Translations under genes and position numbers: made by a program
Shown: one piece after another, positions 1,033 through 36,847 of the stretch
Layout of the letters: the number at the start of each line of letters is the position of its first letter
How positions within the stretch are numbered: position 1 is the stretch's first letter
DNA from: a virus
Lineage: Duplodnaviria; Heunggongvirae; Uroviricota; Caudoviricetes
IMG/VR virus record: IMGVR_UViG_2703719349_000005
Length of the DNA: 37,134 bases
Strand: one strand, 5' to 3'
The notes under the pieces: model-generated
What the model was told of the DNA's origin: nothing
Seen by the model: only the letters and a program-made list of their open reading frames with translations
The model's database searches: none

Positions 1033-1218
1033 AAAAAATGCCCTCCAATAGAGAGCATTTTTACTGTATGTATAACCAGTGTCAATGTATGAAATCTTGC
1101 GACCATACATCTCACTGAAGCCATAATGAAGTTGGCTATTTTTTGCTATGTGAGTATGTGACTTTTGCGGTTAGCCTGCGGCTCATTGTTATATTAGGCG
1201 CAGATATAAAAGCAAAAA

Positions 1219-1410: not shown

Positions 1411-1425
1411 AGTTTACTCCCGGTA

Positions 1426-2001: not shown

Positions 2002-2039
2002 CCCAAGTGAACTTTTATCTTGACGATTTCATGATGCGA

Positions 2040-2068
2040 TCGTATGTTTATGGTGTTCACAAAATACA
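2040..2068 (+). promoter_or_regulatory. Candidate sigma70 early lytic promoter (pR-like): -35 TTGACG (2040-2045), 17-nt spacer, -10 TATGTT (2063-2068)
   Basis: Hexamers read directly in the repressor/apl intergenic region, oriented toward apl-cII. Confidence 0.35.
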
Positions 2069-2120
2069 AACGATCCGTATTCGTCCTGATTAATCATCAT
2101 TAAACGAGGAATGTTGCATC

Positions 2121-2342
2121 ATGAGACCTAACATTTCAATCACTCTTACCACGCCTCATGTGACTATTGAACGCTATAGCGAGCTGACAGGACTGTCCAT
2201 CGATACCATCAATGACATGTTGGCTGATGGACGCCTTATCCGTCACCGTTTGCGCAAAGATAAAAAACGCGAAAAAGTGATGATCAACATAGCAGCCATG
2301 ACCGTTGATGCGCTTTCAGAATGCAATCTAAACCTTAATTAG
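2121..2342 (+). CDS. apl: Apl/Cox-like small DNA-binding protein (excisionase / switch regulator)
   Basis: 73-aa basic ORF, first gene of the rightward early operon, divergent from the repressor. Assignment is by position and size only. Confidence 0.5.
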
Positions 2343-2368
2343 TTCGATTCTGAAATACATCAGAGGCA

Positions 2369-2884
2369 TTGACCATGTTTGATTACCAAGTTTCCAAACA
2401 TCCACATTTTGATGAAGCCTGTCGTGCATTTGCACTGCGCCACAATCTGGTGCAACTGGCAGAACGTGCAGGCATGAATGTGCAGATTCTGCGGAACAAG
2501 CTGAACCCAGCTCAGCCTCATTTATTAACCGCACCAGAAATCTGGCTGCTTACCGATCTGACTGAAGATTCAACGCTGGTAGATGGTTTTCTGGCACAGA
2601 TTCACTGCCTGCCATGTGTACCGATTAATGAGGTTGCAAAAGAGAAACAGCCGCATTACGTCATGAGCGCAACTGCAGAGATCGGACGTGTTGCAGCAGG
2701 TGCGGTATCTGGTGATGTAAAAACTAGTGCCGGTCGTCGTGATGCTATCAGCAGCATTAACTCTGTAACACGACTGATGGCGCTGGCTGCTGTTTCATTG
2801 CAGGCCCGTTTACAGGCTAATCCTGCGATGGCGAGTGCAGTTGATACCGTGACTGGCCTCGGTGCTTCATTCGGTTTGCTGTGA
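2369..2884 (+). CDS. cII: CII-like lysogeny establishment regulator (186 CII family)
   Basis: 171-aa ORF whose translation ([24 protein letters not shown]...[40 protein letters not shown]...) matches my recollection of 186 CII in size and sequence. Confidence 0.7.
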
Positions 2885-2891
2885 GGTGCTT

Positions 2892-3092
2892 ATGCTGACG
2901 AAAGAACCATCATTTGCATCGCTGCTGGTAAAACAAAGCCCGGCAATGCACTACGGTCACGGCTGGATCATGGGTGAGGATGGTAAACGCTGGCATCCGT
3001 GCCGTTCACAAGATGAATTGCTGGCAGAACTATCTACGAAAAAACGGGGGAACAAATGGCTATTGAAGGCGCTGCGGCGACTGTTCCATTAA
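2892..3092 (+). CDS. Hypothetical early protein (~66 aa)
   Basis: ORF with GAGG 5 nt upstream of ATG at 2892, starting just after the cII stop. No recognisable motifs. Confidence 0.4.
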   Translation: MLTKEPSFASLLVKQSPAMHYGHGWIMGEDGKRWHPCRSQDELLAELSTKKRGNKWLLKALRRLFH

Positions 3093-3397
3093 GCCCCGGT
3101 GAACGCCTGAATGGACTTAATCACATAGCGGAATTAAGGGCGAAAGTTTTTGGCCTGAATATTGAGTCAGAGCTTGAGCGGTTTATTAAAGATATGCGTG
3201 ATCCACGGGATATCAATAACGAACAAAATAAACGAGCACTGGCAGCCATATTCTTTATGGCAAAAATTCCGGCTGAACGTCATAGCATCAGCATCAATGA
3301 GCTGACCACTGACGAAAAGCGGGAGTTGATTAAAGCAATGAATCATTTTCGTGCAGTGGTGAGCTTATTTCCCAGACGGCTAACCATGCCGAATTAA
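3056..3397 (+). CDS. Hypothetical early protein (113 aa)
   Basis: ORF in the early operon; no recognisable motifs. Confidence 0.45.
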   Translation: MAIEGAAATVPLSPGERLNGLNHIAELRAKVFGLNIESELERFIKDMRDPRDINNEQNKRALAAIFFMAKIPAERHSISINELTTDEKRELIKAMNHFRAVVSLFPRRLTMPN

Positions 3398-3464
3398 CCA
3401 ACTAATGAAATTAATGGCGTAAACCCGCCGGGTATCCCTTTATCTAAATTCAGGAGAATTGATT

Positions 3465-3698
3465 ATGCGTAATATTGAAATCCTCACGACTAAAACCGGA
3501 CCGGATGATGCAGGGCTTAATATTTTACTGACAGAGGCTCGTCTGGAAGAACGCCGGGCAAGGGCTGAAGCAATGGCAGCTCGCCTTGATAGCCTGGCGT
3601 GTCATATCTCATCCCGTCAGCTAAACCACGTGGAAGCGGCAGAACTGCTGCGTGTGACTGCTGAAGCAATCCAGAACGAAGCGCAGGAGATCCACTAA
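3465..3698 (+). CDS. Hypothetical early protein (77 aa)
   Basis: AGGAG-like site upstream of ATG at 3465; coiled-coil-like sequence. Confidence 0.45.
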   Translation: MRNIEILTTKTGPDDAGLNILLTEARLEERRARAEAMAARLDSLACHISSRQLNHVEAAELLRVTAEAIQNEAQEIH

Positions 3699-3925
3699 TG
3701 GCTGATGCAATGGATCTCGTACAGCAGCGCGTTGAAGAAGAACGCCAGCGCCATATCCGTGCTGCCCGTGCCAAAACACCGGGCGTGTCTCGCGTGCTTT
3801 GCATTGAGTGTGAAGCGCCAATTCCGCCAGCACGCCGCCGTGCCATTCCGGGTGTGCAGCTTTGCATTACCTGTCAGGAAATCGCAGAGCTGAAAGGCAA
3901 ACATTACAACGGAGGTGCTGTATGA
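3698..3925 (+). CDS. TraR/DksA-family C4 zinc-finger protein
   Basis: C-x2-C...C-x2-C motif (CIECEAPIPPARRRAIPGVQLCITCQ) in a 75-aa protein. Start overlaps the upstream stop (ATGA). Confidence 0.6.
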   Translation: MADAMDLVQQRVEEERQRHIRAARAKTPGVSRVLCIECEAPIPPARRRAIPGVQLCITCQEIAELKGKHYNGGAV

Positions 3926-4776
3926 GCACTATCCTGAAATGGGCGGGAAATAAAACCGCCATAATGTCCGAACTGAAAAAACACCTTCCTGCTGGCCCGC
4001 GACTGGTTGAACCTTTCGCGGGTTCCTGTGCTGTGATGATGGAGACGGATTACCCCAGCTATCTGGTTGCGGATATTAATCCTGATTTAATCAACCTCTA
4101 TAAAAAGGTTGCCGCTGATTGTGAATCGTTTATATCTCGCGCCAGAGTTTTATTTGAGATCGCAAACAGGGAGGTGGCTTATTACAACATAAGGCAGGAG
4201 TTTAATTACTCCACTGAAATTACTGATTTCATGAAAGCGGTATATTTTCTGTATCTCAATCGTCACGGTTACCGTGGTTTATGCCGCTATAACAAGAGCG
4301 GGCATTTCAACATTCCCTACGGTAATTATAAAAATCCGTATTTCCCTGAAAAAGAAATTCGCGCATTTGCAGAAAAAGCCCAGCGGGCAACGTTTTTCTG
4401 CGCCAGCTTTGATGAAACGCTGGCGATGTTGAAGGCGGGGGATGTGGTGTATTGCGATCCGCCGTATGACGGTACGTTTTCCGGCTATCACACTGATGGT
4501 TTCACTGAAGATGACCAGTATCACCTGGCATCCGTTCTTGAACATCGAGCATCTGAAGGACATCCGGTCATTGTTTCTAACAGTGACACGTCTTTGACCC
4601 GGTCTCTTTATCGTAATTTCACTCACCACTACATCAGGGCGAAACGCAGCATCGGCGTTGCAGCGGGGGAGGGAAAATTTGCAACAGAGATGATTGCCAC
4701 TAAATCTGCTAATTGGTTTAGTGCCGATTTTAGTAGGGGACGTGACTCTACTGTTATTTTCGGGGTGCAAGTGTGA
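3922..4776 (+). CDS. dam: DNA adenine (N6) methyltransferase, Dam family
   Basis: Translation [11 protein letters not shown]...EPFAGS...[16 protein letters not shown]...YCDPPY has the Dam SAM-binding and DPPY catalytic motifs. GGAGG upstream of ATG at 3922. Confidence 0.9.
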
Positions 4777-5603
4777 AAGAAATGCACCACGGAATTCATC
4801 ATTTCCATGGGACGCCTGTCTGGGGAAGTGCTGGCGACGTTCATCGTATTGCGGTGAGCGGAGCTGGTGCTTTCGTCTCCTATGTACGACCAGATCAGAT
4901 TGCGGCGTCCATTCAGCACGCTCAGGTCGTTGGCATTGATAACGGCGCATTTTCTGCATGGGGGCGTGGGCTAAAAATTAACTGGAGTGATTTTTATAAA
5001 TGGCTCCTGAACTATTACCACCATCCTAAGGTCGCTTTTTTTGTCATTCCTGATGTTGTGGACGGAGGTGAACGTGACAATGATGCCCTGATAAACGAAG
5101 TTCCGAAAATGTTCTACGGGAAGGCAACTCCCGTCTGGCATCTGCACGAGTCAATCGATCGGCTTATCGAGTTATGTCGTGAATGGCCTCGTGTCTGCTT
5201 TGGATCGTCTGGTGAATATGCGGCTATTAGAACTGCGCACTGGCATCGTCGTATGCAGGACGCTTTTGAAGCAATTTATTGCCGACACAATTTCAAAACA
5301 GCTGTTCATGGTTTGCGCATGCTTGACGGTCGTGTGTTGGGAAATTACCCACTGGCGACTGCCGACAGTACAAATCTTGCCTGCAATGTCCCCAAATTTA
5401 ATAGCAAATATCCTGAGCTTACGCGGGCTATTCAGGAGGCTGAGTATTCGCGCAATCTGACGGAAAAGGAGCTGAAAGCTGTCATTCTGAAAAACCGTTG
5501 CGCAATTTTAAAAGGTGCAATTGAAGCTGTTCGCCCACCTTCAGTTTCTGACTGGCTGTCGAATGGTTTGCAGCCTTCACAGCTCGAACTGGAGATTGCG
5601 TAA
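4773..5603 (+). CDS. Conserved phage protein, possibly TGT-fold / DpdA-like (DNA 7-deazaguanine transglycosylase-like)
   Basis: 276-aa ORF overlapping the dam stop (GTGTGA; GTG at 4773 or ATG at 4782). Weak resemblance to tRNA-guanine transglycosylase motifs: [10 protein letters not shown] (cf. DSGGFQ), [15 protein letters not shown]. No C-terminal zinc motif. The family call is tentative. Confidence 0.4.
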
Positions 5604-7975
5604 TGAACTACAGCTATTCCTGGAATGCTGAGAAAAAAGCAATCAATCCTTACGTAGAGACAGAAGAGCAATCTTCAGTTTCTGCGCTTTCAAACCTGAT
5701 CGCTCTGTACGCTGCCGATAACGAGCAGGAACACCTGCGCCGCGAGGTACTGAGTGATCAGGTCTGGGAGCGTTATTTCTTTAATGAATCCCGTGATCCT
5801 GTCCAGCGCGAAATGGAGCAGGATAAGCTCATTAGTCGGGCAAAGCTGGCGCATGAGCAGCAGCGTTTTAATCCAGATATGGTCATTCTGGCGGACGTCA
5901 ATGCCCAGCCTTCCCATATCAGCAAGCCGCTGATGCAACGTATTGAATACTTCAGCAGCCTTGGCAGGCCAAAGGCTTATTCCCGCTATTTGCGTGAGAC
6001 GATTAAGCCATGTCTGGAACGGCTGGAGCATGTACGCGACAGTCAGCTATCCACTTCTTTTCGCTTTATGGCAAGCCATGAAGGGCTGGACGGCCTGCTG
6101 ATTCTGCCTGAAATGAGTCAGGATCAGGTGAAACGCCTGTCCACCCTGGTAGCTGCGCATATGAGTATGTGCCTTGATGTAGCTTGTGGTGATTTGTATG
6201 CCACCGATGATGTTAAGCCAGAAGAAATCCGCAAGACATGGGAAAAGGTGGCTGCAGAAACCCTGCGACTGGATGTCATACCGCCTGCGTTTGAGCAACT
6301 CCGCCGGAAAAGAAACCGCCGCAAACCTGTGCCTTATGAACTCATCCCGGGTTCGCTGGCGCGTATGCTGTGCGCCGACTGGTGGTATCGGAAATTATGG
6401 AAGATGCGTTGCGAATGGCGGGAAGAGCAGTTGCGTGCTGTCTGCCTGGTCAGCAAAAAAGCATCTCCCTATGTCAGCTATGAAGCCGTGATGCATAAAC
6501 GTGAGCAGCGCCGTAAGTCGCTGGAGTTTTTCCGTTCTCATGAACTGGTGAACGAAGACGGCGACACGCTGAACATGGAGGATGTGGTAAACGCCAGCAG
6601 CAGCAACCCGGCGCATCGCCGCAACGAGATGATGGCCTGTGTTAAAGGCCTGGAGCTTATCGCGGAAATGCGTGGTGACTGCGCCGTTTTCTACACCATC
6701 ACCTGTCCGTCACGTTTCCATTCCACGCTAAATAACGGCAGGCCAAACCCGACCTGGACCAACGCGACAGTAAGACAAAGCAGTGATTATTTGGTCGGCA
6801 TGTTTGCTGCATTTCGTAAGGCGATGCACAAAGCCGGATTGCGCTGGTATGGCGTGCGGGTGGCTGAGCCGCATCATGACGGTACAGTTCACTGGCACCT
6901 GTTGTGTTTTATGCGCAAAAAAGACCGCCGCGCCATCACTGCATTACTGCGTAAGTTTGCCATTCGTGAAGACCGCGAGGAGCTGGGTAATAACACGGGA
7001 CCACGCTTTAAGTCTGAGCTGATAAACCCGCGCAAAGGTACGCCAACAAGCTACATCGCGAAATACATCAGTAAGAACATTGACGGGCGTGGTCTGGCTG
7101 GTGAGATCAGCAAGGAAACGGGTAAATCCCTGCGTGATAACGCTGAATACGTTAATGCCTGGGCGTCTCTGCATCGTGTTCAGCAATTCCGCTTCTTTGG
7201 TATTCCGGGGCGTCAGGCTTACCGTGAACTGCGATTGCTGGCTGGTCAGGCGGCAAGGCAGCAGGGGGACAAAAAAGCAGGTGCGCCGGTACTGGATAAC
7301 CCACGCCTTGATGCCATCCTGGCTGCTGCTGATGCTGGCTGTTTTGCCACCTACATCATGAAGCAGGGCGGCGTGCTGGTTCCCCGCAAATATCACCTTA
7401 TCAGAACAGCTTATGAAATTAACGAAGAGCCGACCGCCTATGGCGATCACGGTATTCGTATTTATGGCATCTGGTCACCCATTGCAGAGGGTAAGATCTG
7501 CACTCATGCAGTGAAGTGGAAAATGGTTCGTAAAGCCGTTGACGTTCAGGAGGCGGCAGCCGACCAGGGCGCTTGCGCCCCTTGGACTCGTGGCAATAAC
7601 TGTCCCCTTGCTGAAAATTTGAACCAACATGAGAAAGATGAATCAGCAGATGGGGATACCAGAACGGACATTACCTGCATGGATGACAAGGAATTGCACG
7701 ATTACCTGCACAGTATGAGCAAAAAAGAGCGCCGGGAACTGGCAGCAAGATTGCGCCTGGTTAAACCGAAACGGCGTAAAGACTACAAACAGCGAATTAC
7801 AGAGTATCAGCGTCAGCAGCTCGTCTATGAACTGAAGTCCAGAGGATTTGATGGCAGCGAGAAAGAGGTCGATTTGCTCCTTTGCGGTGGCAGTATTCCG
7901 TCAGGAGCAGGCCTGCGTATCTTCTATCGGAACCAGCGTTTGCAGGAAGATGATAAGTGGCGGAACCTGTATTAA
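5603..7975 (+). CDS. A: Replication initiation protein A (rolling-circle nickase)
   Basis: 790-aa ORF at the P2 gene A position, with HxH-type metal motif ([10 protein letters not shown]) and a tyrosine region ([11 protein letters not shown]) typical of gpA. Confidence 0.88.
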
Positions 7976-8129
7976 TCACGCGGGTTAACAATTCGTGCTC
8001 TTAATAATACCAGGCATATCAGGCTGATGAACGTAAAAAAACGTTTTACATCAGTAAGATTATTATATACTGTAAATATAAACAGTGGTTATATGTACAG
8101 TATTGCGTATGGTGTTATAGGAGGAAAGA

Positions 8130-8317
8130 TGCAGGACTATTTTTTGGAGTCTTTGAAGCTCCAGCGCATTGATTTTTTTCTTAAGCTTGTAGCGGCTAGT
8201 GAGTGTAGTGATGAAGAGAAGGGGCTAGCTCTGCAGTGGGTTTCTGAATTGACTGATGAGTTGATGGCGAAAATTCGAAGCCATGAATACAGTAGGTCGA
8301 TGGATGTAATCAGTTGA
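8130..8317 (+). CDS. Small hypothetical protein (62 aa)
   Basis: AGGAGG 5 nt before ATG at 8130; a hairpin follows downstream. AT-rich. The longer six-frame ORF from 8027 is probably upstream extension. Confidence 0.45.
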
Positions 8318-8350
8318 GCTTGTTTCGTTAGGACTTGATAAGGGAACCGA

Positions 8351-8369
8351 AAAGGGGCATTAAGCCCCT
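8351..8369. terminator. Bidirectional stem-loop between convergent genes
   Basis: AAGGGGC-attaa-GCCCCTT inverted repeat between the 8130..8317 (+) gene and the 8385..8684 (-) gene. Confidence 0.4.
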
Positions 8370-8384
8370 TTCTCATAAGTTGAT

Positions 8385-8684
8385 TTAGTTGTTACCCAAA
8401 GAGCCGGCCATGGCTGCATATTTAATTTCTTCGCTGGGTATTTCAGGATGTAGTTGAATTTGCCTGATGATATAGCCAGGAACTTCTTCACTCCACAGTT
8501 TCGCCGCGTCCTTACAGACCTTATACGCGAAGTCTCTATTCTCAAAGGCATAGGATTTTCCGTATGCATATTGCTGACAGGCATGAACATAAGCTCCGAA
8601 GTCGCCGTCTTTATCTGGCAAAGCACATCCAGCTAAGGCTATGATGATTGCTACTAACGTAAAGGAGAAAGTTATACGTTTCAT
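8385..8684 (-). CDS. Small lipoprotein (99 aa), unknown function
   Basis: Signal peptide with lipobox (MKRITFSFTLVAIIIALAGC). Confidence 0.6.
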   Translation of the reverse strand: MKRITFSFTLVAIIIALAGCALPDKDGDFGAYVHACQQYAYGKSYAFENRDFAYKVCKDAAKLWSEEVPGYIIRQIQLHPEIPSEEIKYAAMAGSLGNN

Positions 8685-8792
8685 GGTCTCTTTCTAAGCG
8701 TTTAGCATTATTTAACTAAGGGGTATCTGCCGTGATTTGGTAGTCCCTGATATATATTCTCAGGGACTATGCTGAAGTAGCTTTAATTTTGA

Positions 8793-9600
8793 TTATTTAG
8801 AAAGGTACTTATCTCTAAGTTGATTCAGTCTGTCAGCATCGCGTTCTGAAAACTCGGCGTCACCATAGATCGATTTCCCATCTGCGTCTTCAAGGCCAAT
8901 GACTGTGACGGTAAATATAGCATCAGCCGGAACTTTAAGTTTTCCCCAATCAGAGTATCTATTAGGGGCTAATTTCCAGTTGGCTTTCTCACCTGGTTCC
9001 AGACCTCCAGAAATTTTATAGTTGAAGACGTCAGAGAACCAAGGGACGCTTCTTCCTGGGCTGGCAATAACTCCTTTGAAGAATACTCTGGCAACCGCTT
9101 TGTCTGTTCCGTTTTCAACGCTAATATCCAGAATTGGCTGATCATTGCCGTAATCCTCTTTCTGGAAATAAAAACGGGAACGTTCGACCTTGAAGGCTTT
9201 CATTTTTTCCGCAGCCTGTGTTGCAGAGGTTTGTTTGGCTTCCAGTTCTTTTATTTCTTGCAGAGCCTGTTCTTTCTCTCTCTTCTCACGCTCAAGGCGA
9301 ATAGTTTGTGCGTAATTTATAACCTCATCACCAGTTTTACCTTCCAACGCTGACTTAATTTTTGTTTCGTAGACGTCCCCAGAAGACGTTCCAGCCTGCA
9401 TTAGCTCTCTCATGTTGATTTGGCTAAAGGCAACGACTTTAACTGCATCATCAAACTGAGCTTTTTTATCTGCAGGTAAGGACTCTCTTACTTTTTGAAT
9501 GGACTCTTTCATCGACTGATCGCTTGATGCATCGATCTTCGGTTTGTCACAAGCAGTAAGCAGCAGAGCAAAAGCAATTACGCCAGTTAATTTCTTCATA
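8793..9600 (-). CDS. Lipoprotein with central coiled-coil (269 aa), unknown function
   Basis: Likely start is ATG at 9600 (MKKLTGVIAFALLLTACDKP, lipobox LTAC). Central EREKREKEQALQEIKELEAKQ coiled-coil and a beta-rich C-terminal half. The six-frame ORF extends to 9671 but the lipobox start is preferred. Confidence 0.6.
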
Positions 9601-10128
9601 TCCCTATCCCAATCGTAAAAAAACAAGGCTAATCCTAACAGGATTAGCGGGCATGACAAACTCATAGCCATATAGGTGTGCTGTATAAATTAGCGGGATG
9701 AGAAAGCCTGCACAGACCCTCATGTTGAAACTTGATTTTAGCTCAAAAGAGCTGACACTAAATAACTGCGCGGAATAATGCTCCACTTTCGGTTAGCCCT
9801 TGGCCCTTGGCCCTTGCTGGGTAAGGCGTGGGGCCGTTTTCTTCGCCTGATCCTGCTGTATCTGGCCTACAGTAGGTTGTCCTTACGCGACATGCCACAT
9901 GTCAGTAAACGGCAGGTGTAGCAGTATTAGACGCAGCTATTTAGTGTGTATTAAGCTGGCTCATATTTATGACTGGTTTCAAGGTTTGACCGATTTTCAT
10001 GTCATGCATGTCTATGCTGCATGAGTTCGCATGATCGTTTGAGGATCGGTTTGGCTAAGACATGCCAGAACTGGCGGGCTTTTGCTCATGTCATGCAGGT
10101 GCATGAAAACTACTACATAAAGCGGGCA

Positions 10129-10147
10129 GGCGTGGCGGGGATACGAG
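10129..10147. other. Candidate cos (cohesive-end) site
   Basis: GGCGTGGCGGGGATACGAG shares its first 13 nt with the recalled 186 cohesive end (GGCGTGGCGGGGAAAGCAT; P2 GGCGAGGCGGGGAAAGCAC). Lies in a ~670-bp non-coding region at the expected map position between the A-side cargo and Q. Confidence 0.45.
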
Positions 10148-10273
10148 CGCGCGCTTAAGGATAAATTGAAGTTGATTTAATTTTTCGACATGGATAATCT
10201 TAACTACGTATGATTATTGATAAAAAATAAACATAAACAATTGTAGCGGATCTTAAAACTTATTAGGATTAGT

Positions 10274-11335
10274 ATGCTTAAAACAAATAAGGTATTTATT
10301 GACACACAAACGTACGTAAAGGCTGGTCTTCATTTTGAGGGGGTAGCATTTAAAGCTTTCCATGAATTATGTGCGAAAGGTGATTTAGTCTTAATTACAA
10401 CTACAGTTGTAGAGAGAGAAGTAAAAGGTAAAATAGAGGAATCAATAAAGGATGCTCTGCAGGCTATAAACACAGTACAAAGAAAAGCTAGGCTTTTGAA
10501 TAGTATTGATAATGGACCGCTCCATGATTTTTTTCAGCAATTTAACGAACATGAAATTCACGAAGCAGCACAAAAAGTTTTTGATGATTTTTTGAAAGGA
10601 TGTCACGCCAAATTAGCTACAATAGAAGTGATAGATCTTAATGAGGTTTTAGATAAATACTTTGGCAAAGAACCACCATTTGGGCAAAATAAGAAAAAAA
10701 GTGAGTTTCCTGATGCAATCACTTTAGCTGCGGTAGAGCGATTTGTTAATGATGAAGATGTGTATATCATTTCTGAGGATAGTGACTTAAAAAATTATTG
10801 TGATGGTAAAAACAATCTTCATCAAATTGATTCACTTGATAAGTTTCTAGGTGAATACAATACGCATACAAACGAATTAAGTAATAAATTGATGCAGTTT
10901 ATCGAAAGCAAACGTGAAGACATAAGAGCGGACGTAATTGCCCAACTCAATGATGCCGATGGATATAACGTTTCAACTTGGGAAGACGCTGAATTGGATT
11001 CATTTGAAGTCGTCAATATTGATGACTTTGAACCATCAATAATTAAGATTAACAATAATTATTGTCTAGCGACCTTCTCTGTTTCTGTAGATTTTGAAGT
11101 TACTGTTTCTGGTCCAGACTTTAATAATGGGTATTGGGATAGCGAAGATAAAGTAATGATTCCAATGGAGACAACCACACGAACTGAAGTTCAAGAGATT
11201 AGTTTCGATATTGAAATTGAAGTTATGTATGAAATCGAGGATGGTGAATTAACAGATATCGCATTTGATGTGAATATTGATAAGTTATCCCGAGGGATTG
11301 AGTTCTCTATTGAAGAAAATAATTTTGAATATTAA
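10274..11335 (+). CDS. PIN-like nuclease-domain protein with acidic C-terminal domain (353 aa); candidate defence / exclusion cargo
   Basis: N-terminal VFIDTQ (Asp in strand 1), VVEREV, SEFPDAITLAAV and ISEDSDL acidic motifs are consistent with a PIN fold. C-terminal ~180 aa is D/E-rich and beta-rich. Very AT-rich. Confidence 0.5.
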   Translation: MLKTNKVFIDTQTYVKAGLHFEGVAFKAFHELCAKGDLVLITTTVVEREVKGKIEESIKDALQAINTVQRKARLLNSIDNGPLHDFFQQFNEHEIHEAAQKVFDDFLKGCHAKLATIEVIDLNEVLDKYFGKEPPFGQNKKKSEFPDAITLAAVERFVNDEDVYIISEDSDLKNYCDGKNNLHQIDSLDKFLGEYNTHTNELSNKLMQFIESKREDIRADVIAQLNDADGYNVSTWEDAELDSFEVVNIDDFEPSIIKINNNYCLATFSVSVDFEVTVSGPDFNNGYWDSEDKVMIPMETTTRTEVQEISFDIEIEVMYEIEDGELTDIAFDVNIDKLSRGIEFSIEENNFEY

Positions 11336-11372
11336 TTCGTTCATAACGGCATCATTGTGATGCCGTTGGGTT

Positions 11373-19280: not shown

Positions 19281-19674
19281 AGCGGTGCCTTATGTCCGCA
19301 ATAACCCGGACAAACTGCATCTGTTTGTGGATAACGGTTCGCTGGTTGCCACGGGGGCCAGCTCCATGTCGTGGGAGTACCGTTACACCCTGAACGCGGT
19401 GATTGAGGATTTCAGCGGCGACCAGAATCTGCTGATGGCCCCGGTTTTGCTGTGGCTGAGGGATAACCAGCCCGATGCCATCAATAACCCGGCGTTACGG
19501 GAAAAGCTATTCACCTTTGAGGTGGATATTTTGCGCAACGATGTCTGTGATATCAGCCTTAACCTGCAACTGACGGAGCGTGTGCTGGTCAGCACTGACG
19601 GCAGTGTGTCGAGCGTTGAAGCGGTAGCGGAACCTGATGAACCTGAAGAAATGTGGACGGTGAAATGTGGCTGA
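19243..19674 (+). CDS. R: Tail completion protein (gpR)
   Basis: Likely GTG start at 19243 (VNKPQSLRHALNKAV...), which aligns with the recalled P2 gpR N-terminus (MLKPDSLRRAL...). Confidence 0.78.
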   Translation: MNKPQSLRHALNKAVPYVRNNPDKLHLFVDNGSLVATGASSMSWEYRYTLNAVIEDFSGDQNLLMAPVLLWLRDNQPDAINNPALREKLFTFEVDILRNDVCDISLNLQLTERVLVSTDGSVSSVEAVAEPDEPEEMWTVKCG

Positions 19675-20104
19675 ACTGCAGAAGGTGGATGAGTGGCTGG
19701 CGGCCTTGCTGGCGAATCTGGAGCCTGCCACACGCCAGCGTATGATGCGGGAACTGGCGCAGGAGTTGCGCCGCAATCAGCAGGAGAATATCAGGCTGCA
19801 GCTTAACCCTGATGGCAGCGGCTTTGAGCCGCGCCGGGTAGCAGCCCGCAGTAAGAAGGGGCGCATCAAACGCCAGATGTTCGCCAAATTGCGCACTAAT
19901 AAATACCTGAAAACTGCCGCCACAGCGGATTATGCCTGCGTGTATTTTGATGGAAAAGTCCAGCGCATCGCCTGTGTACACCACTATGGACTGCGTGACC
20001 GTGTTAGTCGAAGAGGTTTAAAAGTACAGTACCCTGAGAGAAGGCTTTTAGGATTTACTAAGGATATTAGTAACTTGAACTTGGGTGTTTACTTAAAACG
20101 CTAA
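19667..20104 (+). CDS. S: Tail completion protein (gpS)
   Basis: 145-aa ORF at the P2 S position; last ~20 codons become AT-rich (see findings). Confidence 0.8.
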   Translation: MAELQKVDEWLAALLANLEPATRQRMMRELAQELRRNQQENIRLQLNPDGSGFEPRRVAARSKKGRIKRQMFAKLRTNKYLKTAATADYACVYFDGKVQRIACVHHYGLRDRVSRRGLKVQYPERRLLGFTKDISNLNLGVYLKR

Positions 20105-20249
20105 AGTAAATAGTGGGTTAAGAGAATTAGTGGAGGGAGACTTTATCGTTCTACATAAGATACCTTGCTTGAATATACTATAAAGCTCTTTTTTTGAGAT
20201 TAATCTTGTTGTACTTTAATGTCTTCACCTCACTAATGGAGCTAATTTT

Positions 20250-22208
20250 ATGATAGTAGGGATTTTTTTAAGGTATTTTAAAACATACAACGGAAATCAT
20301 TACATACCGTTATCTTCTGGAAGTCAGTTTTGTGGAATTGTTGGTAACAATGGAATTGGCAAAAGTTCTGTTCTTGAGGCTTTAGATTCGTTTATTAATA
20401 ACAAACCATGGAATATTAATTCTTCATTTAAAAGAACCTCCAGTGACAGACCTTCTCCACATATTGTTCCTTTATATCTTATAAAGCGAGAGGAATTACA
20501 TGAAGATCATCATGCTAAAGCTGAAATCTTAACGCAATTAGTATTAGAATATAGCAATAGTAATGCTGATGTTACATTGACGCCAACAACACGAAATATA
20601 ATTAATACGTTTTTTGAACATATTAACAAATTAAAAAGAAATTTAAATCTCCAAGATTATTTTTTGATCCCTCTGGGTGTCGAGAAAGATGGTGATGTAA
20701 GTATTTCGATTCTTAATGGGAAGAGTTTATGTCGACTTTTGGAGGTTGATAATCCCGATAATAAAGTTTCGAGCGAGTTGCTTAGTGAGCACTTTGGGTA
20801 TTTATTACATCATGTCCGCCATAAGTATGAATATATATATATTCCAAAGGATATAGACTCTGAATCGTTTACGAAGCTAGAAACAAGTGAAGTACAAAAG
20901 TTGATGGGTGAGTCTTTAGAGCAGATAATTAAAGATAGAATATCTGATAGAACCATAAGTCAAATCAATACAGGGCTTGCCAAATTTCTGGATGGTGTTG
21001 AAGAGGAGCTTGAAGAATATGGTTATAGAACATCTGGCGAGAGACAATCGCGATTAAAAAAGAAAGATGTTTATAATTTGATTATCGAAGCATTCTTCAA
21101 GGTTAGGAAATTAAATAAAAAGCAGAATTCAGGTTGGATTGAAATTAGCTCGCTAAGTTCAGGGGAGAAGCAACGTGCAATAATGGATATTGCATATGGG
21201 TTTCTTACCAATCATCGAGAAAATGGCGATAATCTGATTATTGGAATTGATGAGCCAGAATGTTCTCTTCATATGTCTGCATGTTTTGAACAATTTGAAA
21301 AGCTCTATTCTATTAGTGGTATATGTGAACAATTAATATTTACTTCACATTGGTATGGCTATCTTCCAACCGTCGAAAATGGATGTACCACAACTATCCT
21401 TAAAACAGATTCAACTCATCATTTTGAATTATATGATCTTGCCAGTTATAGAGAAGAAGTCAGGAAGAAAGTAAAAACCTCTTCCCCGGGTATGCCATTT
21501 GATATAAAAATAAAAAGTGTAAATGACCTTATACAATCCATAATATCTAGCTGTTTGGCTGAGAAACCTTACAATTGGTTGATTTGTGAGGGTACTACAG
21601 AAAAAATATATCTTTCGCATTATCTAAAGGACTTGGTAGAAAATAAAAGGCTAAGGATTGTGCCTGTAGGGGGAGCTAGTGAAGTTAAAAAAATATTTAA
21701 GCATTTAGAAGCTTCTTATGAAGAGTTCAAAAAAGACCTCAAAGGAAAAGTGTTCTTACTAACCGATACAGATTCAGAGTTGGTGTCATATGATACCCCA
21801 GTTATGCCGCATGTTGTTTGTAAGCGAATTGTTAGTGTAGGTGATTCAGTGAAGTTGGTTGATATTTCTTCCAATCCAGTTTCTCCTGCAACAGAAATAG
21901 AGGATTGTCTTAATCCTGTATCGTTTATAGAGGCTTTAACATCATTTTCTTCACGTTTTCCTGAGCTTCAGGCATTGCTGCCTAATAGTAATGTTATGAT
22001 AGATGAAAGACATTCATCGTTTGCTGCGATGGATTTGTCACCCAAGAACAAAAAAACGCTTGATGCTTTTTTTGACCGTGAAGGGATTAAGTTTGATTTT
22101 TCAAAGGAATATATTTCAATCTGTGAGCGAAATGAGCGGAAAAGGCCAGAGTGGATTGCCAAAATTGAAAATTTTTTTATAAGTGATAAACCTGTAAAGT
22201 TTAATTGA
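20250..22208 (+). CDS. OLD/GajA-like ABC-type ATPase fused to Toprim-like nuclease domain (652 aa); candidate antiphage cargo
   Basis: Walker A GNNGIGKSS, ABC-signature-like LSSGEKQ, Walker B LIIGIDEPE, H-loop-like TSHW. C-terminal Toprim-like acidic motifs WLICEGTTEK, IVPVGG, FLLTDTDSE. Strongly AT-rich relative to flanking phage genes. Confidence 0.65.
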   Translation: MIVGIFLRYFKTYNGNHYIPLSSGSQFCGIVGNNGIGKSSVLEALDSFINNKPWNINSSFKRTSSDRPSPHIVPLYLIKREELHEDHHAKAEILTQLVLEYSNSNADVTLTPTTRNIINTFFEHINKLKRNLNLQDYFLIPLGVEKDGDVSISILNGKSLCRLLEVDNPDNKVSSELLSEHFGYLLHHVRHKYEYIYIPKDIDSESFTKLETSEVQKLMGESLEQIIKDRISDRTISQINTGLAKFLDGVEEELEEYGYRTSGERQSRLKKKDVYNLIIEAFFKVRKLNKKQNSGWIEISSLSSGEKQRAIMDIAYGFLTNHRENGDNLIIGIDEPECSLHMSACFEQFEKLYSISGICEQLIFTSHWYGYLPTVENGCTTTILKTDSTHHFELYDLASYREEVRKKVKTSSPGMPFDIKIKSVNDLIQSIISSCLAEKPYNWLICEGTTEKIYLSHYLKDLVENKRLRIVPVGGASEVKKIFKHLEASYEEFKKDLKGKVFLLTDTDSELVSYDTPVMPHVVCKRIVSVGDSVKLVDISSNPVSPATEIEDCLNPVSFIEALTSFSSRFPELQALLPNSNVMIDERHSSFAAMDLSPKNKKTLDAFFDREGIKFDFSKEYISICERNERKRPEWIAKIENFFISDKPVKFN

Positions 22209-22217
22209 TAAATGGTC

Positions 22218-22236
22218 GCAGGGGAAACCCTGCGAT
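22218..22236 (+). terminator. Stem-loop after the cargo gene (TCGCAGGG-gaaa-CCCTGCGA)
   Basis: Perfect 8-bp inverted repeat with a GAAA loop 10 bp after the stop; no clear U-tract. Confidence 0.4.
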
Positions 22237-22243
22237 ATTCTAC

Positions 22244-22318
22244 TAACCTCTAACCTCTAACCTCTAACCTCTAACCTCTAACCTCTAACCTCTAACCTCT
22301 AACCTCTAACCTCTAACC
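22244..22318. repeat. Perfect heptanucleotide microsatellite (TAACCTC) x ~10.7
   Basis: Read directly: ten full tandem copies of TAACCTC plus a partial copy, between the cargo gene hairpin and the P_V dyad. Confidence 0.95.
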
Positions 22319-22346
22319 AGAGGGTTTATTTCTTTTCAAAGAAAAT

Positions 22347-22364
22347 TGTATCTTCTTTTATACA
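22347..22364 (+). promoter_or_regulatory. Late-promoter activator dyad TGT-N12-ACA upstream of V
   Basis: TGTATCTTCTTTTATACA read directly, about 50 bp upstream of the V start. Confidence 0.5.
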
Positions 22365-22411
22365 AAATAAGCTGTTTGAAGAGGTTGTGTAAAGCATGGA
22401 AAAATAATCTT

Positions 22412-22990
22412 ATGAATACACAACTCACAGAAATCATGCGCCTTATCACCAACCTGATCCGCACAGGGGTAGTCACTGAAGTGGACAAGGAAAACTGGCT
22501 TTGTCGGGTGAAAACGGGCGACCTTGAAACCAACTGGATTAACTGGCTGACGCTGCGCGCGGGTAATGCCCGCACATGGTGGCGACCATCGGAAGGTGAG
22601 CAGGTGGTGCTGCTGAGTCTGGGAGGTAATCTGGAAACAGCCTTTGCGCTGCCCGCCATCTATTCGAATCAGTTCGCACCACCGTCGACGTCGGCAGATG
22701 CCTGCGTGATAGAACATCCTGACGGTGGCTGGTTTGAATACGAACCCGCCACTGGGCGCTGGTATGTCAGGGGCATCAAATCAATGGTCATTGAGGCCGC
22801 CGACAATATCACCCTGAAAACCAGTGAGTTTGTGCTGGAGGCTGACCGCACGCGTATTAACAGCGAAGTGGTGATCAATGGTGGCGTTACCCAGGGCGGC
22901 GGAGCGATGAGTTCTAACGGGATCGTGGTTGATGCGCATCAGCATACTGGCGTTCTGAAAGGCGGCGACACAACCGGAGGCCCGGTATGA
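22412..22990 (+). CDS. V: Baseplate spike / assembly protein (gpV)
   Basis: Start at ATG 22412 (MNTQLTEIMRLITNLIRTGVVTEVDKENWLCRV...), gpV-like. Confidence 0.85.
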   Translation: MNTQLTEIMRLITNLIRTGVVTEVDKENWLCRVKTGDLETNWINWLTLRAGNARTWWRPSEGEQVVLLSLGGNLETAFALPAIYSNQFAPPSTSADACVIEHPDGGWFEYEPATGRWYVRGIKSMVIEAADNITLKTSEFVLEADRTRINSEVVINGGVTQGGGAMSSNGIVVDAHQHTGVLKGGDTTGGPV

Positions 22991-34279: not shown

Positions 34280-34360
34280 CTCTGCCGCCAATTTGTCGCC
34301 ATCATTAAAAAACAGTGCGTCTAACATCATGATTTTAAACAGCTTAAATTTCAGGCAACA

Positions 34361-34413
34361 AAAAACCCATCAACCTTGAACCGAAATGGCGGGGTTGATG
34401 GGCTCCACAAAAT
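34361..34413 (-). terminator. Rho-independent terminator (minus strand) downstream of ybjL
   Basis: Inverted repeat CCCATCAACC...GGTTGATGGG followed on the minus strand by a T6 run. Confidence 0.55.
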
Positions 34414-34514
34414 GGGGACATCAAAGAAAAGCAGTGGCACTAATTAAGACTGATGCCCTGCGGAAAAGTTCTGCGGTTGTGCAAAAAAATTTCATTTTCA
34501 GGGCAACTTCAGTT

Positions 34515-36200
34515 TTATCCTAATCCTGGCCATACCATGACGATGATTGTCCCTGCCAGCGTCAGCAGGACGTTGGCGATTGCGTAGGTGCCCGCATAGC
34601 CCAGCGCAGGGATGTTACTGCGAGCTGTATCACTGATGATCTCCATTGCCGGCGCGCAGGTGCGTGCGCCCATCATTGCGCCGAACAACAGTGCGCGGTT
34701 CATTCGCAATACATAAGCACCGAACAAGAAACAGATAACCACGGGCACAAGACTGACAATTAATCCGGCAATCAACATCTGACCGCCAATCGCGCCCAGG
34801 CCGTTATTAATACCGCTACCGGCGCTCAGACCAACGCCTGCCATAAACACCATCAAGCCGAACTCTTTCACCATGCTTAATGCACCTTGCGGAATGTAAC
34901 CGAAGGTCGGGTGGTTAGCACGCATAAAGCCCAGCATAATTCCGGCGAATAACAACCCGGCAGCGTTCCCCATGCCGAAACTGAATGTGCTGAACTGGAA
35001 GGTGATCATCCCGATCATCAGCCCAATAACAAAGAAGGCGCAAAATGCCAGCAGGTCAGTGACCTGGCTGTGAATCGAGATAAAGCCGATGCGATCGGCG
35101 ATGGTTTTTACGCGACGGGCATCACCGCTGACTTGTAAAACGTCACCTTTGTTAAGCACGACGTTGTCATCTATCGGCATCTCAATCTGGCTACGAATGA
35201 CGCGGTTAAGGAAGCAACCGTGATCGGTCAACTTCAGTTGTGCGAGACGTTTACCTACAGCGTTATGGTTTTTAACGACCACTTCTTCAGTGACGATACG
35301 CATGTCGAGAAGGTCACGATCGAAAACTTCTTTACCGTTACGGAAGCTGGGATCGAGTCGGGCATGGGCGTCGGGATAGCCTACCAACGCTATTTCATCG
35401 CCCATTTGTAGCACGGCATCACCGTCTGGATTTGCCAGAATCCCGTTACGTCGAATACGTTCAATGTAGCAGCCGGTTTGTCGATAAATACCCAGTTCAC
35501 GCAGATTTTTGCCGTCGGTCCAGGCCACCAGCTCCGGGCCGACGCGATAGGCGCGGATCACCGGTAAATAAACCTTACGGTTGGCATCAGTGTCCAGGCC
35601 ACGTTCGCGGGCGATTTGCTGGGCGCTGGTCTGTAAGTCCTGATGCTGCAATTTCGGCAAGTAACGCGCACCAACAATCAAACTCACCAGACCGATTAAA
35701 TAGGTTAAGGCATACCCGAGGCTCAGATTATCCAGTGCCAGTGAGAGCTGCCTGCTTTCCATGCCGAAATGACGCAGTGTATCGCCAGCACCGACCAGAA
35801 CCGGTGTCGACGTCATAGAGCCTGCTAACATACCGGCCGTCAGGCCAATATCCCAGCCAAACAGCTTACCTAACCCTAAGGCGATCACCAGCGCACTGCC
35901 AACCATCACCAGTGCTAACATTAGGTAATTTTTCCCATCGCGAAAAAAAATGGAAAAAAAGTTCGGTCCGGCTTCGACCCCGACGCAGAAAATAAACAGC
36001 ATAAAGCCAAGATTAAGCGCATCGGTGTTAATGCTGAAATGTTGTTGGCCTAATAACAGCGATACGACTAAAACGCCAATGGAATTACCCAGTTGGATCG
36101 AACCAAGTCGTAACTTTCCGAGACATAGCCCAAGCGCGAGGACCACAAATAATAACAGAATGTAATTCCCATTTAACAATTCGGCGACGTTTATATTCAC
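34515..36200 (-). CDS. ybjL: Putative transport protein YbjL (AspT/YidE/YbjL family, two TrkA-C domains)
   Basis: 561-aa translation ([36 protein letters not shown]...) matches E. coli YbjL as I recall it. Confidence 0.88.
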
Positions 36201-36469: not shown

Positions 36470-36847
36470 GTGAAACATAAACAACGTTGGGCGGGGGCAA
36501 TCTGCTGTTTTGTCCTCTTCATTGTGGTGTGCCTTTTTCTGGCGACGCACATGAAAGGCGCTTTTCGGGCTGCCGGGCATCCTGAAATCGGCTTGCTATT
36601 TTTCATTCTTCCTGGAGCAGTTGCCAGTTTCTTTTCACAGCGTAGAGAAGTCCTGAAACCTCTATTTGGCGCAATGCTGGCGGCACCCTGTTCAATGCTC
36701 ATTATGCGGCTGTTTTTTTCACCGACGCGCTCATTCTGGCAAGAGCTGGCATGGTTACTAAGCGCGGTGTTCTGGTGTGCGCTGGGGGCACTGTGTTTCT
36801 TATTTATCAGTAGTTTGTTTAAACCACAGCACAGAAAAAATCAGTAA
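36470..36847 (+). CDS. ybjM: Inner membrane protein YbjM
   Basis: 125-aa multi-TM protein with GTG start after AGGAGGA; sits between ybjL and grxA as in E. coli. Confidence 0.8.
   Translation: MKHKQRWAGAICCFVLFIVVCLFLATHMKGAFRAAGHPEIGLLFFILPGAVASFFSQRREVLKPLFGAMLAAPCSMLIMRLFFSPTRSFWQELAWLLSAVFWCALGALCFLFISSLFKPQHRKNQ

What the first reader, a model, noticed from the sequence alone, without database searches (positions are those of the whole stretch)
20105..22320. OLD/GajA-like ATPase-Toprim gene inserted between tail-completion gene S and baseplate gene V, outside the canonical P2 cargo sites
The 652-aa ORF at 20250-22208 carries ABC-ATPase motifs (GNNGIGKSS, LSSGEKQ, LIIGIDEPE, TSHW) and C-terminal Toprim-like acidic motifs (WLICEGTTEK, IVPVGG, FLLTDTDSE). 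This is the architecture of P2 Old, Gabija GajA and PARIS-type effectors. It is AT-rich against GC-richer tail genes and has its own hairpin. There is no helicase (GajB-like) or other partner gene adjacent, so it looks like a solitary OLD-class effector. The classical P2 cargo sites are A-Q and G-FI; here G-FI is empty and a defence-like gene occupies S-V, which I do not recall as a described hotspot. This is my leading candidate for an undescribed system.
Basis: partly seen in the sequence, partly recalled or inferred. Interest (0 to 1): 0.85.

Follow-up and report, generated by a model that had tools for sequence, protein, structure and literature searches.

The report
Solitary OLD-family nuclease in P2 orf30 site
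A P2-like prophage of E. coli carries a divergent, stand-alone OLD-type ATPase-nuclease gene, most likely an anti-phage defence gene, in a slot between tail genes S and V that has long been known to hold foreign genes, so it is a new example of a known kind.

Summary
A 652-aa ORF (20250-22208, +) lies in a 34% GC island between tail genes S and V (55-59% GC). It passes Pfam thresholds for AAA_15 and OLD-like_TOPRIM. Its predicted fold matches full-length GajA, the retron-Eco8 OLD effector and Thermus OLD. All ATPase and two-metal Toprim residues are invariant in 34 homologues, and dN/dS is 0.06. It has no partner gene here or in five unrelated contexts, so it is a Class 1 (solitary) OLD-family nuclease. 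It belongs to a compact, uncharacterised clade (about 250 clusters at 50% identity) that is very distant from P2 Old, Vc OLD and YbjD.

The claim that S-V is an undescribed cargo site is wrong. P2's own non-essential orf30 sits there, and papers from 2010 and 2019 list it as one of three characteristic moron regions. My census shows about 40-45% of related prophages carry cargo there, in at least 18 types, including PARIS, Septu, SIR2, AIPR, GmrSD and KAP NTPase.

This gene is co-oriented with the late genes, unlike most of that cargo. No terminator-like fold was found between S and the gene.

Verdict: a new member of a known kind. Defence function and substrate are inferred, not shown.

The parts
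19999..22411 (.). Swapped cassette relative to empty-site relatives. It comprises the 3' end of S, the OLD-like gene, terminators, a heptamer array and the PV promoter region.
   Evidence: blastn against the empty-site E. coli prophage L011 loses homology after 19998 and regains it at 22411. GC falls below 0.40 from about 20020-20040 to about 22440.
19667..20104 (+). Tail-completion gene S. Its last ~16-35 codons belong to the AT-rich cassette.
   Evidence: Pfam Phage_tail_S 1.4e-36. The divergent AT-rich 3' end is shared with the Cronobacter P2-like copy.
20150..20179 (+). Candidate sigma-70 promoter (TCTACA-18-TATACT). The evidence is weak.
   Evidence: Consensus scan gives 9 of 12 matches, but the number of such sites in the region is no higher than in shuffles.
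20197..20206 (.). Palindrome AGATTAATCT upstream of the gene. It travels with the gene and is a possible operator or UTR element.
   Evidence: Identical in the E. coli and Cronobacter copies, and imperfect (AAGATTATTCTT) upstream of the chromosomal Pantoea copy.
20250..22208 (+). OLD-family (Class 1) ATPase-Toprim nuclease gene, 652 aa. A GGAG Shine-Dalgarno sequence lies at 20238-20241.
20268..21350 (+). ABC-type ATPase domain (aa 7-367) with a helical insertion (~aa 200-295). Key residues: Walker A K38, signature LSSGEKQ 302-308, Walker B D334/E335, H-loop H367.
   Evidence: Pfam AAA_15 and AAA_21. These residues are invariant in the 34-sequence alignment. The AF2 model shows low-confidence helices at 220-297.
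21576..22091 (+). Toprim nuclease domain plus the start of the helical domain (aa 443-614). Key residues: E447, E451, D506xD508, T548/E549/E551, K614.
   Evidence: Pfam OLD-like_TOPRIM covers aa 443-508. The residues are invariant or nearly invariant. Their pattern and spacing mirror Bp OLD E400/E404/D455/D457/T506/E508/K562 (PMC6755086).
22214..22236 (+). G+C-rich hairpin 6 nt after the stop codon (9-bp stem, GAAA loop).
   Evidence: The region folds better than all 200 shuffles (z = -3.2).
22243..22318 (.). Perfect tandem heptamer array, (CTAACCT) x 10.9, with variable copy number between strains.
   Evidence: TRF score 152 with 100% matches. E. coli SF-468 has 6 whole CTCTAAC units where the window has 10 by the same count. 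E. coli matches end in 7-nt steps. The array is absent from the Cronobacter copy.
22310..22335 (+). Terminator-like short hairpin (CCTCT-AACC-AGAGG) followed by a T-run. Its left arm is the last heptamer unit.
   Evidence: Terminator scan and fold.
22347..22364 (+). TGT-N12-ACA dyad upstream of V, at the position of the activator (Ogr/B) site of late promoter PV.
   Evidence: Pattern search. P2 annotates an activator binding site at the same relative position. The empty-site relative has TGTATCAGCAGTGATACA there. The function is inferred.
22412..22990 (+). Baseplate spike gene V.
   Evidence: Pfam Phage_base_V 3e-18 and Apex. 96% nucleotide identity to relatives from 22411 onward.

Best explanation
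The gene encodes a stand-alone (Class 1) OLD-family enzyme: an N-terminal ABC-type ATPase with a helical dimerisation insert, fused to a C-terminal two-metal Toprim nuclease. It is carried as a moron in the orf30 (S-V) variable locus of a 186/P2-like E. coli prophage.

Shown:
- domain identity and fold;
- conservation of every catalytic residue;
- strong purifying selection;
- solitary organisation;
- horizontal mobility;
- residence in a locus that elsewhere holds known defence systems.

Inferred:
- it protects the lysogen and prophage against other phages;
- it stays inactive until infection is sensed;
- ATP binding or hydrolysis by the ATPase dimer then licenses the Toprim site to cut nucleic acid (DNA nicking as in Vc OLD and GajA, or tRNA cleavage as in P2 Old and AriB; I cannot tell which), stopping replication or killing the infected cell.

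The cassette moves by recombination in the flanking S and V genes. It brings its own S 3' end and PV promoter region.
For: Domains and fold:
- Pfam AAA_15 64 bits (cutoff 32) and OLD-like_TOPRIM 28.8 bits (cutoff 23.2).
- PADLOC Old 2.4e-11 and retron I-B ATPase-Toprim 1.8e-9.
- AF2 model with pLDDT 77.8. Foldseek full-length matches to GajA 8x5i (2e-14), Eco8 OLD 9lpa (3e-13) and Ts OLD 6p74 (1.4e-11).
- hhalign to P2 Old gives 89.7% probability across the signature motif, Walker B, H-loop and Toprim strands.

Catalytic residues and selection:
- K38, D334/E335, H367, E447, D506, D508, T548, E549, E551 and K614 are invariant (E451 nearly) in 34 homologues down to 47% identity.
- dN/dS is 0.06.

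Solitary and mobile:
- Contexts are P2-like S-V in E. coli and Cronobacter, a single-gene insert in Pantoea, next to an integrase and a SIR2_2 gene in Atlantibacter, beside an Rhs island in E. kobei, and an integrative element in Halopseudomonas.

S-V cargo elsewhere is defence-type:
- PARIS, Septu, an AriAB-like fusion, KAP/PDC-S49, SIR2, AIPR, FRG and GmrSD.

Precedent:
- Class 1 OLDs defend in P2, V. cholerae and E. coli YbjD.
Against: - There is no functional data for this clade.
- The gene is co-oriented with the late operons, and no terminator-like structure separates it from S (z = 0.10). Most other S-V cargo is antisense. It may therefore be expressed mainly or also in lytic growth.
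- Evidence for its own promoter is no better than chance.
- The clade is so distant from characterised OLDs (P2 Old BLASTP E = 1e-4 over 79 aa; no PDB sequence hit better than 0.006) that trigger and substrate cannot be transferred.
- In YbjD the Toprim domain was dispensable for the phenotype.
- An archaeal OLD (Cran1) is not a defence protein.
Confidence: 0.7

Rival explanations
1. It is a single-chain PARIS (fused AriA-AriB) system. It would sense anti-restriction proteins such as Ocr and release a Toprim tRNA nuclease.
For: The best PADLOC hit is labelled AriA (8.5e-22). The best PDB sequence hit is AriA (0.006-0.035). Two-gene PARIS and an AriAB-like fusion occupy the same S-V site in other E. 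coli prophages.
Against: - The 'AriA' profile hit covers only the generic ATPase. The profile is 373 positions long, close to Pfam AAA_15's 374, so I suspect it is essentially that model; I did not check this.
- The AriAB fusion profile aligns over only 47 residues.
- The Toprim domain matches OLD-like_TOPRIM, not DUF4435.
- hhalign to the AriAB-like S-V protein gives only 56% probability.
- Structural neighbours are GajA, Eco8 OLD and Ts OLD, not AriA/AriB.
Confidence: 0.08
2. It serves the phage's own lytic cycle or inter-element conflict rather than lysogen defence. It would be transcribed by read-through from the late O operon and act on host DNA, co-infecting phages or P4-type satellites.
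For: It has the same orientation as the late genes. No terminator-like fold lies between the S stop codon and the gene. The terminator-like elements come only after the gene. Most other S-V cargo is on the opposite strand.
Against: - Close homologues sit outside prophages as lone chromosomal genes (Pantoea, E. kobei), so they function without late-operon transcription.
- A conserved upstream palindrome and Shine-Dalgarno sequence travel with the gene.
- Plus-strand SIR2 cargo also occurs at this site.
Confidence: 0.12
3. It is an orphaned effector of a multi-gene system (Gabija without GajB, or a retron without RT/ncRNA). On its own it would be inactive or dependent on a partner in trans.
For: The nearest structural matches are the multi-gene-system effectors GajA and Eco8 OLD. 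The retron I-B ATPase-Toprim profile hits at 1.8e-9.
Against: - No helicase, RT or other ORF is adjacent.
- Rfam finds no RNA family in the cassette.
- The gene is solitary in six independent contexts.
- It is under strong purifying selection with all catalytic residues intact.
Confidence: 0.05
4. It is a non-defence housekeeping or DNA-metabolism ATPase-nuclease, as proposed for archaeal Cran1.
For: Not every OLD-family protein is a defence protein (PMC12796447 abstract).
Against: The gene is sporadic (14 of 5426 complete E. coli genomes). It has 34% GC in hosts whose flanking DNA is about 55-59% GC. It is always found in mobile or variable contexts.
Confidence: 0.03

Closest known systems
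P2 Old (Class 1 OLD, archetype)
   Same: It is a solitary ABC-ATPase + Toprim protein carried as a non-essential moron by a P2-type phage. It has the same motif order (hhalign 89.7% probability).
   Different: It sits at a different locus (A-Q/TO region rather than S-V) and on the opposite orientation logic. It is only about 23-30% identical over partial alignments, and 586 aa against 652 aa. Its RecBCD-sensing trigger and tRNA target cannot be assumed here.
Vc OLD of Vibrio cholerae (Class 1, DNA nickase)
   Same: It is solitary, sits on a mobile defence element, and requires its ATPase and Toprim residues for defence.
   Different: Its key residues are at different positions (K48/D313/D468/D470 against K38/D334/D506/D508). 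I did not have the sequence to align. It is not among the named close homologues.
E. coli YbjD/OldB (Class 1)
   Same: It is a solitary OLD-type protein of E. coli with anti-phage phenotypes on induction.
   Different: It is a core chromosomal gene of 552 aa. Only the P-loop aligns to this family's profile. [quoted passage not shown]
Thermus scotoductus OLD (6P74) and Bp OLD (Class 1 and Class 2 structures)
   Same: Full-length fold match (E = 1.4e-11). The two-metal residue pattern E...E, DxD, T/E, K is conserved.
   Different: About 13% identity. The global TM-score is low (0.29-0.35) because domain orientations differ and the model is uncertain at 220-297. This protein is about 130 aa longer than the solved Ts OLD chain.
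GajA (Gabija, Class 2) and the retron-Eco8 OLD effector (Class 3)
   Same: These are the best structural neighbours (2e-14 and 3e-13).
   Different: They need GajB helicase, or RT plus msDNA. Neither partner is present here.
P2 orf30 locus (S-V moron region)
   Same: Same position: between the S stop codon and the PV activator site. The cargo is AT-rich and non-essential.
   Different: orf30 and most other cargo are antisense to the late genes and unrelated in sequence. This cargo is sense-oriented and replaces the 3' end of S.

Membership tests
OLD family nucleases (superfamily) | N-terminal ABC-type ATPase with Walker A, signature motif, Walker B and H-loop | tested here: met
   Pfam AAA_15 64.3 bits against a cutoff of 32.1. 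G32-K38-S39, LSSGEKQ 302-308, D334/E335 and H367 are invariant in 34 homologues.
OLD family nucleases (superfamily) | C-terminal Toprim domain with the conserved Glu and the DxD motif | tested here: met
   Pfam OLD-like_TOPRIM 28.8 bits against a cutoff of 23.2. E447 and D506/D508 are invariant.
OLD family nucleases (superfamily) | Second-metal ligands and a catalytic Lys from the helical domain (Bp OLD E404, T506, E508, K562) | tested here: inconclusive
   E451 (at +4 from E447), T548/E549/E551 and K614 are invariant or nearly so, with similar spacing. The assignment is by pattern, not by superposition of coordinates.
OLD family nucleases (superfamily) | Full-length fold similarity to solved OLD proteins | tested here: met
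   Foldseek probability 1.00 to GajA, Eco8 OLD and Ts OLD over 570-700 aligned columns. Global TM is only about 0.3.
OLD family nucleases (superfamily) | ATP hydrolysis and metal-dependent nuclease activity | not testable with these tools
   Needs purified protein.
Class 1 OLD | Isolated gene with no helicase, RT or other conserved partner | tested here: met
   No adjacent ORF of 20 aa or more in the gaps. The flanks are gpS and gpV. Neighbours differ in six contexts.
Class 2 OLD / Gabija GajA | [quoted passage not shown] | tested here: not met
   No such gene is in the cassette or beside any homologue examined. GajA profiles hit only the P-loop.
Class 3 OLD / retron type I-B effector | Adjacent reverse transcriptase and msr-msd ncRNA | tested here: not met
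   There is no RT ORF. Rfam at gathering threshold finds only RybB in the whole window. Rfam's coverage of retron RNAs is incomplete.
PARIS (AriA/AriB or fused AriAB) | DUF4435-type Toprim (AriB) partnered or fused with AriA | tested here: not met
   No DUF4435 hit. The AriAB profile aligns to residues 295-341 only. A true AriA+AriB pair at the same site in another strain scores clearly (AriB 2e-24).
P2 Old orthologue | Close full-length sequence similarity to P2 Old | tested here: not met
   BLASTP E = 1e-4 over 79 residues. tblastn of this protein finds nothing in 50,697 phage records.
P2-like moron region 'orf30' (S-V) | Foreign gene(s) between the S stop codon and the PV promoter, variable among P2-like phages | tested here: met
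   P2 annotation. Literature. Census: 22 of 56 sampled E. coli backbones and 34 of 75 IMG/VR loci are occupied, in at least 18 cargo types.

The most novel reading that the evidence does not exclude
This compact clade (about 250 clusters at 50% identity, nearly all 625-670 aa, not reached from mainstream OLD/GajA families by sequence search) could be a functionally distinct OLD class with its own trigger and substrate. In this prophage it is co-transcribed with the late O operon. It would then act during the phage's own lytic cycle, for example against co-infecting phages or P4-type satellites, rather than as a classical lysogenic-conversion defence.
Probability: 0.12. Interest if true: 0.55.

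Novelty: new member of a known kind. Interest (0 to 1): 0.3.

Why it matters
Few solitary (Class 1) OLD nucleases have been tested: P2 Old, Vc OLD and YbjD. They differ in trigger, substrate and even in whether the Toprim domain is needed. A 2023 review lists whether lone OLD proteins defend on their own as an open question. This gene adds a natural, prophage-borne and very divergent test case. Generic tools label it only as 'AAA family ATPase', and its matches to the PADLOC Old and GajA profiles are weak and partial, so defence annotation pipelines may miss it.

A by-product may be more useful than the gene. The S-V (orf30) locus is a rich reservoir of defence and unknown genes, occupied in about 40-45% of related prophages by at least 18 cargo types. 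The hotspot papers I read concentrate on A-Q and Z/fun and do not name S-V as a defence hotspot.

Tried and rejected
- tblastn of the protein against 50,697 phage records found no match. No deposited phage genome in that set carries it, although IMG/VR prophage contig L030 does.
- PDB sequence searches with the single protein and with the profile found nothing better than AriA at 0.006. Fold search was needed.
- hhalign to YbjD aligned only the P-loop. I did not pursue YbjD as a close relative.
- The promoter scan found no more sites than in shuffles, so I make no promoter claim beyond 'candidate'.
- Folding the S-to-OLD spacer showed no terminator (z = 0.10).
- Rfam on the whole window found only host RybB, which rejects the retron reading as far as Rfam covers retron RNAs.
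- PADLOC on the two A-Q cargo proteins gave no hits.
- I considered that the PADLOC 'AriA' top hit meant PARIS. I rejected this because the hit covers only the generic ATPase, there is no DUF4435 match and the AriAB fusion profile aligns over only 47 residues; I also suspect, from its length alone, that the profile is essentially Pfam AAA_15.
- I could not obtain the Vc OLD sequence for a direct comparison. I compared only the published residue numbers.
- I could not read the model coordinates, so I could not confirm that the putative catalytic residues cluster in space.
Full report
**1. Observation**

The window is a complete 186/P2-like prophage. It runs from the integrase (1-1110, minus strand) and a CI-type repressor, through a Dam-like methylase, gpA, an AT-rich A-Q cargo region, and the portal and other late genes. 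Host ybjL and ybjM lie at the right end.

The ORF named in the finding exists exactly as described: 20250-22208, plus strand, 652 aa, with every quoted motif. GC is 0.33-0.37 across 20001-22500 and 0.55-0.59 on both sides. Pfam confirms the neighbours as gpR, gpS and gpV. A strong hairpin follows the stop codon. No other ORF of 20 aa or more lies in the intergenic gaps.

**2. What the protein is**

- Pfam gives AAA_15 (2e-17, residues 7-367), AAA_21, and OLD-like_TOPRIM (1.8e-6, residues 443-508). All three are above their gathering scores.
- PADLOC gives 'AriA' (8.5e-22) over the ATPase only, through a 373-position profile that I suspect is essentially Pfam AAA_15 (374 positions). It then gives Old (2.4e-11) and the retron I-B ATPase-Toprim profile (1.8e-9). 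GajA profiles hit only the P-loop.
- Sequence searches of the PDB find nothing convincing.
- An AlphaFold2 model built on a 34-sequence alignment has mean pLDDT 77.8. It is weak only in the helical insert at 220-297 and a linker at 408-419.
- That model matches full-length OLD proteins: GajA 8x5i (E = 2e-14), the retron-Eco8 OLD effector (3e-13) and Thermus scotoductus OLD 6p74 (1.4e-11). Each has probability 1.00 and about 570-700 aligned columns.
- hhalign of the family profile to P2 Old gives 89.7% probability across the ABC signature, Walker B, H-loop and the first two Toprim strands.

**3. Catalytic competence**

In 34 homologues down to 47% identity, the following are invariant:

- Walker A: G32, G35, G37, K38, S39.
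- Signature motif: L302-S-S-G-E-K-Q308.
- Walker B: D334 and E335.
- H-loop: H367.
- Toprim: E447, D506, D508, T548, E549, E551 and K614. E451 is nearly invariant.

This reproduces the pattern defined structurally for Bp OLD. There, E400 and D455/D457 form metal site A, E404 and T506/E508 form metal site B, and K562 is the catalytic lysine (PMC6755086). My assignment of the metal-B ligands and the lysine rests on pattern and spacing only.

The gene is under strong purifying selection. dN/dS is 0.06 against the 91%-identical Cronobacter copy. GC stays at 34% in the E. coli, Cronobacter and Pantoea copies.

**4. Family size and distance from characterised OLDs**

The word-indexed search gave 685 hits. 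The best 120 are nearly all 640-665 aa and come from Enterobacterales (58-91% identity) and from distant Gamma- and Campylobacterota (about 48%).

Exhaustive phmmer against 1.84 billion representatives gave only 471 hits at E <= 1e-3 and 250 at E <= 1e-30, most of them full length. The family is therefore compact and sharply bounded, and sequence search does not reach the mainstream OLD/GajA families.

- P2 Old aligns by BLASTP only over 79 residues (E = 1e-4).
- YbjD aligns only at the P-loop.
- Vc OLD has its key residues at different positions.
- RefSeq labels the gene simply 'AAA family ATPase'.

**5. Solitary and mobile**

| Host | Identity | Context |
|---|---|---|
| E. coli (14 of 5426 complete genomes) | >=99% | S-V of a P2-like prophage in the one genome fetched with flanks (SF-468) and across the R-S-V-W backbone in another (H45) |
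| Cronobacter | 91% | Same S-V position in a P2-like prophage |
| Pantoea | 75% | Single-gene insert between the phn operon and an mscS gene |
| Atlantibacter | 59% | Beside an integrase and a SIR2_2 gene |
| Enterobacter kobei | 58% | Next to an Rhs/SUKH island |
| Halopseudomonas | 48% | In an integrative element |

No neighbour is conserved across these contexts. No helicase, RT or DUF4435 gene is present, and Rfam finds no RNA in the cassette. By the published, context-based definition this is a Class 1 OLD.

**6. The site**

- P2 itself carries the non-essential orf30 between the O-operon terminator after S and the activator site of PV.
- PMC3091744 (2010) names the TO region, the Z region and orf30 as the three loci where foreign genes are commonly found.
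- The defence-hotspot papers I read concentrate on A-Q and Z/fun. A 2026 preprint mentions additional hotspots 'within the late genes' and 'downstream of GpL' without naming S-V.

My own census gives the following.

- *E. coli genomes.* 1055 of 5426 complete genomes hold this R-S...V-W backbone. In an evenly spaced sample of 56 backbones, 34 have an empty junction and 22 carry cargo.
- *Cargo identities there.* They include PARIS AriA+AriB, Septu PtuA+PtuB, an AriAB-like fusion, a KAP NTPase (PDC-S49), GmrSD, SIR2, FRG and DUF6216.
- *IMG/VR loci.* Of 75 loci with a 96-98% identical gpV, 41 are empty and 34 are occupied, in at least 18 size and gene classes. These include AIPR, SIR2_2, FRG, DUF2971, DUF6216 and several proteins with no Pfam match. 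One locus (L030) carries this OLD gene at 99.8% identity.

S-V is therefore a genuine defence-rich hotspot. That supports a defence role for the gene by association.

**7. Anatomy of the cassette**

Against an empty-site relative, homology ends at 19998, inside S about 35 codons before its stop. It resumes at 22411, one base before the V start codon. The cassette therefore replaces the S C-terminus and brings its own PV region, including a TGT-N12-ACA dyad at 22347-22364. The AT-rich S tail is shared with the Cronobacter copy, which fits movement by recombination within S and V.

Most other cargo at this site is antisense to the late genes. This gene is sense-oriented, and the 145-nt spacer after S shows no terminator-like fold (z = 0.10). 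Terminator-like elements come only after the gene: a hairpin at 22214-22236 and a short hairpin plus T-run at 22310-22335. Read-through from the O operon during lytic growth is therefore plausible, although this is inference.

Evidence for an own promoter is weak. A palindrome (AGATTAATCT, 20197-20206) does travel with the gene into the Pantoea chromosome.

**8. Mechanism**

*Shown:* the architecture, intact catalytic residues, purifying selection, mobility and a defence-rich locus.

*Inferred:* an ATP-regulated Toprim nuclease that is kept inactive until infection. It then cuts DNA (as Vc OLD and GajA do) or tRNA (as P2 Old and AriB do), giving abortive infection or a block to replication. 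I cannot choose between the substrates, and the trigger is unknown.

*Rivals:*

- a fused PARIS system;
- a lytic-cycle or anti-satellite role;
- an orphaned effector of a multi-gene system;
- a non-defence housekeeping role.

**9. Verdict**

The gene is a new, divergent member of a known kind (a Class 1 OLD carried as a P2 moron) at a known variable locus. It is not an undescribed system. Interest is modest: it is a good experimental test case for solitary OLD function and a pointer to the under-used S-V hotspot.

Noticed in passing
window 22243-22318: Perfect tandem heptamer array, (CTAACCT) x 10.9, between the OLD gene's hairpin and the PV promoter. Copy number differs between E. coli strains: SF-468 has 6 whole CTCTAAC units where the window has 10 by the same count, and matches in other genomes end in 7-nt steps. 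The array is absent from the Cronobacter copy. Its last unit forms the left arm of the terminator-like hairpin at 22310-22323. Function unknown.
   Followed up: partly
window 8000-11350: The canonical A-Q (TO) hotspot is occupied by AT-rich cargo (GC 0.33-0.45). One gene is a DUF6694 protein (8793-9671, minus strand). Another is a PIN_12 protein with a weak DUF7339 match (10274-11335, plus strand). Several small ORFs are also present. Neither large protein matches any PADLOC model, so they are uncharacterised defence candidates.
   Followed up: partly
E. coli and IMG/VR loci L017-L020 and L022-L101 (S-V junction): The S-V (orf30) junction of related prophages is a rich hotspot. About 40-45% of junctions are occupied, by at least 18 cargo types. 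These include PARIS, Septu, an AriAB-like fusion, KAP/PDC-S49, GmrSD, SIR2, AIPR, FRG, DUF2971 and DUF6216. Five proteins (304, 386, 429, 449 and 503 aa) have no Pfam match above threshold.
   Followed up: partly
window 19999-20104: The last ~35 codons of tail gene S diverge from empty-site relatives, and the last ~16 are AT-rich cassette sequence shared with the Cronobacter copy. The cargo swap therefore rewrites the C-terminus of an essential tail protein.
   Followed up: partly
window 20197-20206: The palindrome AGATTAATCT lies about 45 nt upstream of the OLD start codon. It is conserved in the Cronobacter prophage copy and, imperfectly, upstream of the chromosomal Pantoea copy. It may be an operator or UTR element that moves with the gene.
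   Followed up: no
window 34357-34435 (minus strand): The host sRNA gene RybB (Rfam 105 bits) lies just beyond the prophage's right end, followed by ybjL (34515-36200) and ybjM (36470-36847). The prophage is therefore integrated next to rybB.
   Followed up: no
window 3862-4776 (plus strand): The prophage early region encodes a D12-class N6-adenine DNA methyltransferase (Pfam 2.3e-75). This could modify the phage or host genome and affect restriction or defence interactions.
   Followed up: no
L015/L016 (Atlantibacter hermannii) 428-6962: A 59%-identical homologue of the OLD-like gene lies next to an integrase, a CI-like repressor fragment and an 864-aa SIR2_2 protein. This looks like a small defence islet at the int-att end of a phage-like element.
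   Followed up: no
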